Assembly (NCBI RefSeq): GCF_046105845.1
Contig: NZ_CP151004.1
Source: Escherichia coli
GTDB lineage: Bacteria; Pseudomonadota; Gammaproteobacteria; Enterobacterales; Enterobacteriaceae
DNA length: 64,000 bases
Strand: one strand, 5' to 3'
Position numbers: made by a program. Shown piece after piece: positions 45,227 to 48,200 of this stretch (position 1 is the first letter of the stretch; the number at the start of each line of letters is the position of its first letter).

Positions 45227-48200
45227 ATCACCGACCAAATTCGAAAAGCCTGCTCAACGAGCAGGCTTTTTTGCATCTGCAGCTCATGAGGATGAGAACC
45301 TCCGGGGGCAGGGAGGTTCGACTCGAGCGAAGCGAGAGAACGTTGCGTCAGCAACGGCCCGCAGGGCGAGCCACGAAGTGGCGAGTAATCCTCTATCACC
45401 GACCAAATTCGAAAAGCCTGCTCAGCGAGCAGGCTTTTTTGCATTTGTAGCCTATGAGGATGAGAACCTCCGGGGGCAGGAAGGTTCGACTCGACGTAGG
45501 CCTGATAAGACGCGCCAGCGTCGCTTCAGGCAACGGCACCGCACTTATTGTCGGATGCGGCGCGACCGCCTTATTCGACCTATACACCATACATTTCCCT
45601 GCCAAATTTGCGCCCCATATCTCACTATCCATTAACGGATTTGTGACAGAAACCATTGCCTTTTTTTATATTTGCTTAAATCTTTTTTTGCGTTACTTAT
45701 GGCTGGCGCTGGCATTTTCCGCTGTGCGTTTTAGCGTTCATGGTATTAATCGCTCAGATATCCACCTTTTCCTCAGATTTTTTTCACTAAATGCATAAAA
45801 CTTAATCACCAATTGTTGCTAAATATTAAGCTGATTGTTCTGGTCATGTTGGAGTAGCACAAATTTCTCTGCTGCAAATAGCTGTTTGAAGTTTTTTTAA
45901 TCTTTGTTTGTGGATTCTCACCGTTGGTGTAAATCCCGGTTGGCTGTATTGACGTTTTCACATTCTGTTGACAGATTGTAGGTCACGAGGGGCATTTTAT
46001 GGAGGATCCGCACTGTTACACTGATGTTAATTAGTACGGCATCCCCACCTCATACGTTGACCCGACCGGGCAAAAAACAAAAAAGGTCAGGCAGCGACAA
46101 CCCACTGCAAAGGGTTAAAACAACAAACATCACAATTGGAGCAGAATAATGCGTATTTCCTTGAAAAAGTCAGGGATGCTGAAGCTTGGTCTCAGCCTGG
46201 TGGCTATGACCGTCGCAGCAAGTGTTCAGGCTAAAACTCTGGTTTATTGCTCAGAAGGATCTCCGGAAGGGTTTAACCCGCAGTTGTTTACCTCCGGTAC
46301 TACCTATGACGCCTCTTCCGTGCCGCTTTATAACCGCCTGGTTGAATTTAAAATCGGCACCACCGAAGTAATCCCGGGCCTCGCTGAAAAGTGGGAAGTC
46401 AGCGAAGACGGTAAAACCTATACCTTCCATCTGCGTAAAGGTGTGAAGTGGCACGACAACAAAGAATTCAAACCGACGCGCGAACTGAACGCCGACGACG
46501 TGGTGTTCTCGTTCGATCGTCAGAAAAACGCGCAAAACCCGTACCATAAAGTTTCTGGCGGCAGCTACGAATACTTTGAAGGCATGGGCTTGCCGGAGCT
46601 GATCAGCGAAGTGAAAAAGGTGGACGACAACACTGTTCAGTTTGTGCTGACTCGACCGGAAGCGCCGTTCCTCGCTGACCTGGCAATGGACTTCGCCTCT
46701 ATTCTGTCAAAAGAATATGCTGACGCGATGATGAAAGCCGGTACACCGGAAAAACTGGACCTCAACCCAATCGGCACCGGTCCGTTCCAGTTACAGCAGT
46801 ACCAAAAAGATTCCCGTATCCGCTACAAAGCGTTTGATGGCTACTGGGGCACCAAACCGCAGATCGATACGCTGGTTTTCTCTATTACCCCTGATGCTTC
46901 CGTGCGTTACGCGAAATTGCAGAAGAATGAATGCCAGGTGATGCCGTACCCGAACCCGGCAGATATCGCTCGCATGAAGCAGGATAAATCCATCAATCTG
47001 ATGGAAATGCCGGGGCTTAACGTCGGCTATCTTTCATATAACGTGCAGAAAAAACCACTTGATGACGTGAAAGTTCGCCAGGCTCTGACCTACGCGGTGA
47101 ACAAAGACGCTATCATCAAAGCGGTTTATCAGGGCGCGGGCGTGGCAGCGAAAAACCTGATCCCGCCAACCATGTGGGGCTATAACGACGACGTTCAGGA
47201 CTACACCTACGATCCCGAAAAAGCGAAAGCCTTGCTGAAAGAAGCGGGCCTGGAAAAAGGCTTCTCCATCGACCTGTGGGCAATGCCGGTACAACGTCCG
47301 TATAACCCGAATGCTCGCCGCATGGCAGAGATGATTCAGGCAGACTGGGCGAAAGTGGGCGTGCAGGCCAAAATTGTCACTTACGAATGGGGTGAGTATC
47401 TCAAGCGTGCGAAAGATGGCGAGCATCAGACGGTAATGATGGGCTGGACTGGCGACAACGGGGATCCGGATAACTTCTTCGCCACCCTGTTCAGCTGCGC
47501 CGCCTCTGAACAAGGCTCCAACTACTCAAAATGGTGCTACAAACCGTTTGAAGATCTGATTCAACCGGCGCGTGCTACCGACGACCATAACAAACGCGTT
47601 GAACTGTACAAGCAAGCGCAGGTGGTGATGCACGATCAGGCTCCGGCACTGATCATCGCTCACTCCACCGTGTTTGAACCGGTACGCAAAGAAGTTAAAG
47701 GCTATGTGGTTGATCCATTAGGCAAACATCACTTCGAAAACGTCTCTATCGAATAATTAAAAGCCATACCCGGTGGCGCTGTGCCTCTGCGTGCAGCGCC
47801 ATCCGGCAGCAATACTTCATTCCCTGCCCGACCTGGGCGGGAATTGATTTGTGAGCAATACAGACACGCAGTTCCAGGCTGCGGGTCACTACAGAGAATC
47901 CGGGTTATGTTGCAGTTTATTCTCCGACGTTTGGGACTCGTCATCCCCACGTTTATCGGTATTACCCTTCTCACATTTGCCTTTGTCCACATGATCCCGG
48001 GCGATCCGGTGATGATCATGGCGGGCGAACGTGGGATCTCCCCAGAGCGTCACGCGCAGCTGCTGGCTGAACTCGGCTTAGATAAACCGATGTGGCAGCA
48101 GTATCTCCATTACATTTGGGGCGTAATGCACGGCGATTTAGGCATTTCAATGAAAAGCCGCATCCCGGTTTGGGAAGAGTTCGTGCCGCGCTTTCAGGCC

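What the first reader, a model, noticed from the sequence alone, without database searches (positions are those of the whole stretch)
46081..46148. C/A-rich stretch in the dppA leader consistent with an sRNA target
Seen in sequence: aaaacaacaaacatcacaa sits immediately 5' of the dppA Shine-Dalgarno within a long leader. Established knowledge: dppA is a classic GcvB target, with pairing to a C/A-rich element. Inference: post-transcriptional control is conserved in this strain.
Basis: partly seen in the sequence, partly recalled or inferred. Interest (0 to 1): 0.15.

Follow-up and report, generated by a model that had tools for sequence, protein, structure and literature searches.

The report
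GcvB sRNA target in dppA leader
The C/A-rich stretch in front of the E. coli dppA gene is the already well-studied binding site for the small RNA GcvB (and a translation enhancer), unchanged from strain K-12, so the finding is correct but ordinary.

Summary
AAAACAACAAACATCACAA lies at 46117-46135 (+). It ends 2 nt before the dppA Shine-Dalgarno GGAG (46138-46141) and 13 nt before the ATG (46149), inside a ~164-nt leader. From -92 to the ATG the leader is base-for-base identical to E. coli K-12 MG1655.

An accessibility-aware duplex scan pairs GcvB nt 62-82 (seed region R1) with 46119-46138 (-30..-11). The duplex has 20 bp with one bulged G; hybrid energy is -24.6 and net energy -15.7 kcal/mol. 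The target is predicted single-stranded. The site ranks first among 57 neighbouring translation-initiation regions, and 1 of 120 dinucleotide shuffles reaches its energy.

A C/A-rich block next to the SD occurs in all 50 distinct leader variants from 80 Enterobacteriaceae loci. The paired region contains the four-ACA 15-mer that Yang et al. 2014 showed to be both the GcvB target and a translation enhancer in Salmonella. dppA is listed as a verified R1 target in E. coli.

Caveats: C/A-richness alone and hybrid energy alone are not exceptional in this window, and gcvB itself lies outside it.

Verdict: already known, low interest. Side notes: a private 1-nt deletion at about -95, and an unreported candidate GcvB site at the yhjV start codon.

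The parts
45985..46148 (+). dppA 5' untranslated leader (~164 nt)
   Evidence: The K-12 dppA::gfp fusion starts at -165 (PMC1807950 Table 1). The window aligns to K-12 with one 1-nt deletion. The start coordinate is inferred by alignment, not mapped here; the promoter scan did not flag a consensus promoter.
46055..46096 (+). Hairpin presenting a 17-nt A-rich loop (GGGCAAAAAACAAAAAA, 46068-46084); candidate Hfq distal-face (A-R-N) binding site
   Evidence: Present in the MFE and centroid fold. In 48 Enterobacteriaceae leaders 81% of cells are paired and 5 of 10 pairs show compensatory changes; slid controls give 20-52% paired. Tree et al. [quoted passage not shown] Assigning that binding to this loop is inference.
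46099..46116 (+). Small 5-bp hairpin AACCC-ACUGCAAA-GGGUU, present only in some genera
   Evidence: Seen in the MFE and centroid fold. It is present in the Escherichia, Salmonella, Citrobacter and Kluyvera type leaders and absent from the Klebsiella, Raoultella and Enterobacter type leaders. Function unknown.
46119..46138 (+). C/A-rich element: predicted duplex with GcvB R1 (GcvB nt 62-82), positions -30..-11
   Evidence: Best interaction in the accessibility-aware scan: 20 bp with G75 of GcvB bulged, hybrid -24.6, net -15.7 kcal/mol. It lies in the predicted unpaired run 46117-46140.
46120..46134 (+). Four-ACA 15-mer ACAACAAACATCACA (translation-enhancer motifs inside the GcvB site)
   Evidence: Read directly from the sequence. 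It is orthologous to the Salmonella ACAACATACATCACA reconstructed from primer ppN85. Deleting that segment lowered dppA-lacZ by 96% (PMC3879156).
46138..46141 (+). Shine-Dalgarno GGAG; its first G is the last pair of the predicted duplex
   Evidence: Read from the sequence. GGAGC is invariant in 48 aligned leaders.
46149..47756 (+). dppA coding sequence (dipeptide ABC transporter periplasmic binding protein)
   Evidence: ORF; annotated as dppA in E. coli genomes.

Best explanation
The C/A-rich block at 46119-46138 is the binding site on dppA mRNA for the G/U-rich R1 seed of the Hfq-dependent small RNA GcvB. The same ACA-rich sequence also acts as a translation enhancer. When GcvB is made (GcvA activates it when glycine is high, i.e. 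in rich medium), R1 (nt ~62-82) forms a ~20-bp duplex covering -30 to -11. This duplex runs up to the first G of the Shine-Dalgarno. It masks the enhancer and blocks 30S binding, so DppA synthesis falls. Hfq, probably docked on the A-rich elements of the leader, speeds annealing.

Shown here: sequence identity with K-12; the predicted duplex, its position and its accessibility; conservation across Enterobacteriaceae.

Taken from the literature: repression, the requirement for R1, footprinting, and enhancer activity.

Inferred: that the strain carries gcvB, and that the A-rich loop is the Hfq site.
For: The motif and its geometry are. The leader is identical to K-12 MG1655 from -92 to the ATG.

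The GcvB sequence was validated: 199 bits to Rfam RF00022, located next to gcvA, and present in 5,425 of 5,426 E. coli genomes.

The best interaction is GcvB 62-82 with 46119-46138, net -15.7 kcal/mol. It ranks 1st of 57 local translation-initiation regions. One of 120 dinucleotide shuffles is as good.

The target lies in a 24-nt unpaired run.

All 50 distinct orthologous leader variants, from 80 Enterobacteriaceae loci, keep a C/A-rich block before GGAG. Its hybridisation energy with R1 averages -27.9 kcal/mol, against -15.1 and -13.9 for two upstream control segments; the site is better in 50 of 50.

Literature support:
- A K-12 dppA::gfp fusion is repressed about 3-fold by GcvB, in an Hfq-dependent way (PMC1807950).
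- The four-ACA 15-mer is both the GcvB target and an enhancer (PMC3879156).
- dppA is listed as a verified R1 target, with RIL-seq, CLASH and MAPS counts (PMC9299463).
- A delta-R1 mutant and footprinting are cited, and a ternary Hfq-GcvB-dppA complex was observed (PMC4104026).
- TRIC-seq localises GcvB-dppA contacts (bioRxiv 10.1101/2025.09.11.675593).
Against: gcvB is not in the window, so its presence in this strain is inferred.

The energy margin over neighbouring genes is small (2 kcal/mol). Hybrid-only energy is matched or beaten by about 10 unrelated sites in the window, because G/U-rich R1 pairs promiscuously.

C/A-richness and the ACA count are not enriched over shuffles.

I could not read the primary mapping papers (Sharma 2007; Pulvermacher 2008). 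The exact footprinted nucleotides are therefore taken second-hand.

The cross-species energies used E. coli GcvB, not each species' own GcvB.
Confidence: 0.93

Rival explanations
1. The C/A-rich block is primarily a cis-acting translation enhancer: ACA motifs that help 30S or S1 recruitment next to a modest SD. GcvB complementarity would then be secondary.
For: In Salmonella, deleting the 15-nt four-ACA segment cut dppA-lacZ by 96%, and randomising the ACAs gave 0.5-5% activity in 18 of 43 mutants (PMC3879156). The segment is predicted unstructured. ACA count is 2 or more (median 4) in all 50 orthologous variants.
Against: This is not exclusive of GcvB control. The same paper calls the segment the GcvB target and argues that GcvB works by silencing the enhancer. 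An enhancer alone does not explain 20 bp of ordered complementarity to R1 extending into AAUUG (46134-38), nor the in-vivo GcvB-dppA chimeras.
Confidence: 0.6
2. The stretch is mainly an Hfq (distal-face A-R-N) binding site, or a target of a different sRNA, rather than a GcvB pairing site.
For: AAC-AAC-AAA (46119-46127) fits three A-R-N repeats (sequence). dppA mRNA binds Hfq with ~10-fold higher affinity than GcvB or AgvB, and competes with the distal-face binder AgvB for the same site on Hfq (PMC4104026).
Against: A better A-R-N candidate exists upstream: the conserved A-rich hairpin loop at 46068-84. GcvB R1 is the experimentally documented partner. No other sRNA was tested here, so a second partner cannot be excluded.
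Confidence: 0.15
3. Chance low-complexity sequence with no regulatory role.
For: C/A-rich 19-mers and four-ACA 15-mers occur at about the frequency expected from shuffles in this window. About 10 sites have equal or better hybrid-only energy with R1.
Against: It is conserved at the same position in 50 of 50 distinct orthologous leaders while the flanking leader diverges. It has the top accessibility-corrected rank locally. There is extensive experimental literature.
Confidence: 0.01

Closest known systems
GcvB-dppA interaction of E. coli K-12 and Salmonella Typhimurium (Urbanowski 2000; Sharma 2007; Pulvermacher 2008; Yang 2014)
   Same: Same gene, and the same position immediately 5' of the SD. 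The sequence is identical to K-12 from -92 to the ATG. The same GcvB R1 partner is predicted. It has the same four-ACA 15-mer as Salmonella apart from one base (ACAACAAACATCACA versus ACAACATACATCACA).
   Different: Nothing at the site itself. The leader has a private 1-nt deletion at about -95. Relative to Salmonella, the T-to-A change moves the single bulge in the duplex (G75 bulged in E. coli; a U74 bulge with a U-G75 pair is my reading for Salmonella).
Other GcvB R1 targets with C/A-rich elements (oppA, argT, gltI, livJ, livK, yifK, cycA, sstT)
   Same: A G/U-rich seed pairs with a C/A-rich, unstructured element at or upstream of the RBS of mRNAs for amino-acid or peptide transporters. The interaction is Hfq-dependent. 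ACA motifs double as enhancers in yifK (PMC3879156).
   Different: The dppA duplex is unusually long, described as the 'long R1 pairing' that a 4-nt mutation does not disrupt (PMC4104026). It abuts the SD, whereas the gltI, argT and livJ sites lie upstream of the RBS (PMC2639303).
Decoys of GcvB R1: AgvB (EHEC prophage anti-sRNA) and SroC sponge
   Same: They carry the same CACAACA-type C/A motif and bind R1. AgvB relieves dppA repression (PMC4104026; PMC4474525 listed).
   Different: Those are trans-acting RNAs that titrate GcvB. The element here is a cis site on a regulated mRNA. Neither decoy was looked for in the window.

Membership tests
GcvB R1 target site (C/A-rich element in an mRNA translation-initiation region) | Extended complementarity to the G/U-rich R1 region of GcvB (about nt 62-90) | tested here: met
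   20 bp, GcvB 62-82 with 46119-46138, one bulge, hybrid energy -24.6 kcal/mol. The GcvB sequence was validated by Rfam.
GcvB R1 target site (C/A-rich element in an mRNA translation-initiation region) | Interaction energy better than background once accessibility is included | tested here: met
   Net -15.7 kcal/mol. Rank 1 of 57 neighbouring translation-initiation regions. 1 of 120 dinucleotide shuffles is as good, z = -2.35. The margin is modest, and hybrid-only energy is not discriminating.
GcvB R1 target site (C/A-rich element in an mRNA translation-initiation region) | Target region single-stranded and at or near the RBS | tested here: met
   Unpaired run 46117-46140 in both the MFE and centroid structures, with unpaired probabilities of ~0.7-0.9. 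The site ends at the first G of the SD.
GcvB R1 target site (C/A-rich element in an mRNA translation-initiation region) | Site conserved in orthologous mRNAs | tested here: met
   50 of 50 distinct leader variants from 80 Enterobacteriaceae loci keep a C/A block before GGAG, with stronger R1 hybridisation than upstream controls. Each species' own GcvB was not tested.
GcvB R1 target site (C/A-rich element in an mRNA translation-initiation region) | Same nucleotides as the experimentally mapped site | tested here: met
   Identical to K-12. It contains the orthologue of the Salmonella 15-nt four-ACA GcvB target. The primary footprinting paper could not be read.
GcvB R1 target site (C/A-rich element in an mRNA translation-initiation region) | GcvB- and Hfq-dependent repression of translation in vivo | not testable with these tools
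   Published for K-12 and O157 leaders. Not tested for this exact leader, which carries the -95 deletion.
GcvB R1 target site (C/A-rich element in an mRNA translation-initiation region) | gcvB present with an intact R1 in the same genome | not testable with these tools
   gcvB is not in the 64-kb window. It is present in 5,425 of 5,426 complete E. coli genomes, 5,389 of them at >=99% identity.
ACA-motif translation enhancer (Yang et al. 2014) | Cluster of ACA trinucleotides just upstream of the SD in unstructured RNA | tested here: met
   Four ACA in 46120-46134, in an unpaired region.
ACA-motif translation enhancer (Yang et al. 2014) | Loss of expression when the ACAs are replaced | not testable with these tools
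   Shown only for Salmonella dppA.

The most novel reading that the evidence does not exclude
The leader may be more than a simple pairing site. One reading is a conserved three-part module: an A-rich-loop hairpin (46055-46096) as a dedicated Hfq distal-face dock, a variable spacer hairpin, and the C/A enhancer that doubles as the GcvB site. In that reading, the private 1-nt deletion at about -95, at the foot of the A-loop hairpin, would measurably change GcvB/Hfq control in this strain. Separately, yhjV (start codon at 53134, - strand) may be an unrecognised GcvB R1 target.
Probability: 0.1. Interest if true: 0.3.

Novelty: already known. Interest (0 to 1): 0.08.

Why it matters
It matters little beyond annotation. 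It confirms that this strain keeps the textbook GcvB-dppA riboregulatory site intact, so dipeptide uptake should be repressed post-transcriptionally in rich medium as in K-12. The analysis is also a useful calibration. Composition alone and hybrid energy alone would not have singled this site out. Accessibility, position next to the SD and orthologue conservation do.

Tried and rejected
- Whole-GcvB duplexfold without accessibility gave an implausible 56-pair, -55 kcal/mol hybrid involving structured parts of GcvB. I rejected it in favour of an accessibility-corrected scan.
- The hybrid-only scan of the window with R1 does not discriminate: the dppA site is about the 11th distinct site listed, and G-U-rich duplexes with GC-rich coding sequence score higher.
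- Tests of C/A composition and ACA density against shuffles showed no enrichment.
- RNAalifold on the 48-leader alignment returned no consensus structure. I therefore specified the A-loop hairpin by hand and counted pairs.
- The promoter scan did not flag a consensus promoter for the literature TSS, so I do not claim the -35 and -10 hexamers.
- Sharma 2007, Pulvermacher 2008 and Pulvermacher 2009 could not be read. The Y. pestis gcvB paper gave no pairing coordinates. The supplements of Miyakoshi 2022 are not held.
- Rfam has no cis-regulatory family covering the dppA leader.

Full report
**What is there.** The window around the finding is the E. coli eptB - proK (tRNA-Pro) - dppABCDF region.
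- The 535-aa ORF at 46149-47756 is dppA. A 501-nt query spanning the leader matches 5,422 of 5,426 complete E. coli genomes at >=95% identity, all annotated dppA.
- The quoted 19-mer AAAACAACAAACATCACAA occurs once in the window, at 46117-46135.
- It ends 2 nt before GGAG (46138-46141), which lies 7 nt before the ATG.
- The K-12 dppA::gfp fusion that "encompasses the entire 5'-UTR" starts at -165 (PMC1807950).

**Comparison with K-12.** Aligned with MG1655 (NC_000913.3), the window is identical from -92 through the start codon and into the coding region.
- There are two differences in 301 nt. One is a SNP upstream of the leader. The other is a 1-nt deletion, CATAACG to CATACG, at about 46053/54.
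- No complete E. coli genome has a leader 100% identical to this one; the best is 99.4%.
- A 37-nt query centred on the deletion finds nothing in 5,426 genomes.
- The deletion is therefore private to this source, or a homopolymer assembly error. It lies about 65 nt upstream of the C/A block.

**The partner RNA.** gcvB is not in the window; Rfam at gathering thresholds finds cspA, sok, RtT, rdlD, naRNA4, tRNA and ES036 only.
- A 206-nt GcvB sequence recalled from memory matched 5,425 of 5,426 E. coli genomes, 5,389 of them at >=99%.
- In one of these genomes it lies next to gcvA and scores 199 bits against Rfam RF00022 (gathering score 42). I used that locus sequence.

**Pairing prediction.** IntaRNA and RNAup are not installed. 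I therefore slid 30-nt windows of GcvB against 30-nt windows of the mRNA, took ViennaRNA duplexfold energies, and added opening energies from unpaired probabilities for the exact intervals.
- Over the whole leader plus 100 nt of coding sequence, the best solution is GcvB 62-82 with window 46119-46138, i.e. -30..-11.
- This is 20 bp, 18 Watson-Crick and 2 G-U, with G75 of GcvB bulged. Hybrid energy is -24.6, opening cost is 7.7 (GcvB) plus 1.2 (mRNA), and the net is -15.7 kcal/mol.
- The duplex ends on the first G of the SD.
- The target costs almost nothing to open because 46117-46140 is a 24-nt unpaired run in both the MFE and centroid folds.

**Background.**
- *Neighbouring genes.* The same procedure on -100..+50 of 57 neighbouring genes puts dppA first at -15.6. 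(These sequences came from the near-identical strain C4; 22 of the 58 regions scanned are exact in the window.) Next are bcsQ and wecH at -13.6 and yhjV at -12.4; most of the rest are weaker than -9.
- *Shuffles.* 120 dinucleotide-preserving shuffles of the dppA region, which keep its A/C richness, give a mean of -9.2 with sd 2.7. One reaches the real value (z = -2.35).
- *Hybrid-only energy.* R1 against every 30-mer of both strands gives a mean of -13.6 with sd 3.95. The dppA site scores -29.5, about 4 sd out, but about 10 unrelated sites score better through G-U-rich pairing with GC-rich sequence.
- *Composition.* It is unremarkable: 61 C/A-rich 19-mers against 46.6 expected, and three four-ACA 15-mers against 3.7 expected.
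It passes because of accessibility and position, not raw complementarity or composition.

**Conservation.** One scan of representative genomes with DppA returned 80 loci (>=90% protein identity) from Escherichia, Salmonella, Citrobacter, Klebsiella, Raoultella, Enterobacter, Kluyvera, Kosakonia, Buttiauxella, Cedecea and others.
- The 45 nt before the ATG fall into 50 distinct variants.
- Every one has a C/A-rich block directly before an invariant GGAGC, with 2-7 ACA motifs (median 4). The exact sequence drifts, for example ACAACAAACATCACA, CACAACACACATCACA, CAAACAACATCACA and AACATCACAA.
- Hybridisation with E. coli R1 averages -27.9 kcal/mol for -45..-1. Two upstream 45-nt control segments of the same leaders give -15.1 and -13.9. 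The site wins in 50 of 50.
- Caveat: each species' own GcvB was not available.

**Literature.**
- Urban & Vogel 2007: the K-12 dppA::gfp fusion (-165 to codon 14) is repressed about 3-fold by GcvB specifically. The effect drops to 1.6-fold without Hfq.
- Yang et al. [quoted passage not shown] Deleting the segment lowers expression by 96%.
- Their primer ppN85 shows that the Salmonella segment is ACAACATACATCACA followed by ATTGGAGCAGAAGAATG. That is the orthologue of 46120-46134 with one T-to-A difference.
- Miyakoshi et al. 2022 list dppA as an R1 target "Verified" in both E. coli and Salmonella, with RIL-seq, CLASH and MAPS counts.
- Tree et al. [quoted passage not shown] The EHEC anti-sRNA AgvB relieves the repression.
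- The IntaRNA benchmark treats GcvB-dppA as a verified interaction.
- TRIC-seq localises the contact in vivo.

**Rest of the interval.** The span 46081-46116 is not C/A-rich.
- It contains the 3' arm of a hairpin (46055-46096) whose 17-nt loop GGGCAAAAAACAAAAAA (46068-46084) is A-rich, and then a 5-bp hairpin (46099-46116).
- Across 48 leaders the first hairpin keeps 81% of cells paired, and 5 of 10 pairs show compensatory changes. Slid controls drop to 20-52%.
- The second hairpin exists only in some genera.
- The A-rich loop is a plausible Hfq distal-face (A-R-N) site. That assignment is inference.

**Mechanism and verdict.**
- GcvB R1 anneals to the unstructured ACA-rich enhancer abutting the SD. 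This masks both the enhancer and 30S access. Hfq assists annealing.
Interest is low.
- Remaining uncertainty concerns only whether the unseen part of this genome carries an intact gcvB, and whether the private -95 deletion has any effect.

Noticed in passing
window 46053-46054: There is a 1-nt deletion in the dppA leader (K-12 CATAACG becomes CATACG), at about -95. No complete E. coli genome (5,426) shares it: the best leader identity is 99.4%, and a 37-nt query across the site finds nothing. It is either a private variant or an AA-to-A homopolymer assembly error. It sits at the foot of the A-rich-loop hairpin, outside the GcvB site.
   Followed up: partly
window 53134 (- strand; yhjV start codon) to about 53110: yhjV (aromatic amino-acid transport family) begins ATGCAGCACAACACACTACCG. 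This holds the CACAACA GcvB-R1 consensus target motif right after the start codon. My scan pairs it with GcvB 61-82 (hybrid -25.7, net -12.4 kcal/mol, 4th of 57 local genes). No paper in the searchable library links yhjV with GcvB as a target. It is a candidate unreported target.
   Followed up: partly
window 46055-46096: A conserved hairpin in the dppA leader presents a 17-nt A-rich loop (GGGCAAAAAACAAAAAA). Five of 10 stem pairs show compensatory changes across 48 Enterobacteriaceae leaders. It is a candidate Hfq distal-face binding site.
   Followed up: partly
window 45161-45580: proK tRNA-Pro(CGG) at 45161-45237 is followed by an RtT-family repeat (45272-45405, + strand, 102 bits) and a naRNA4/REP-type element (45499-45580, - strand, 62.7 bits). 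These fill the long eptB-dppA intergenic region upstream of the dppA promoter.
   Followed up: no
window ~27400-34000 versus strain C4 (L004): The window is collinear with strain C4 around eptB-dppA but differs upstream. The cspA thermoregulator is at 27859-28287 here, against about 33.6 kb in the C4 locus, which carries an IS150. Downstream, the window has two rdlD/ldr units by Rfam where C4 annotates four ldr genes. Only 22 of 58 scanned translation-initiation regions (57 from C4 plus the window's own dppA) are exact in the window.
   Followed up: no
window 46141-46152: A weak 3-bp helix (GCA/UGC) is predicted between the tail of the SD region and the start codon. The full-length duplexfold also found GcvB nt 31-44 complementary to 46144-46160. 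However, that part of GcvB is buried in its 5' stem-loop, so the match is probably meaningless.
   Followed up: partly
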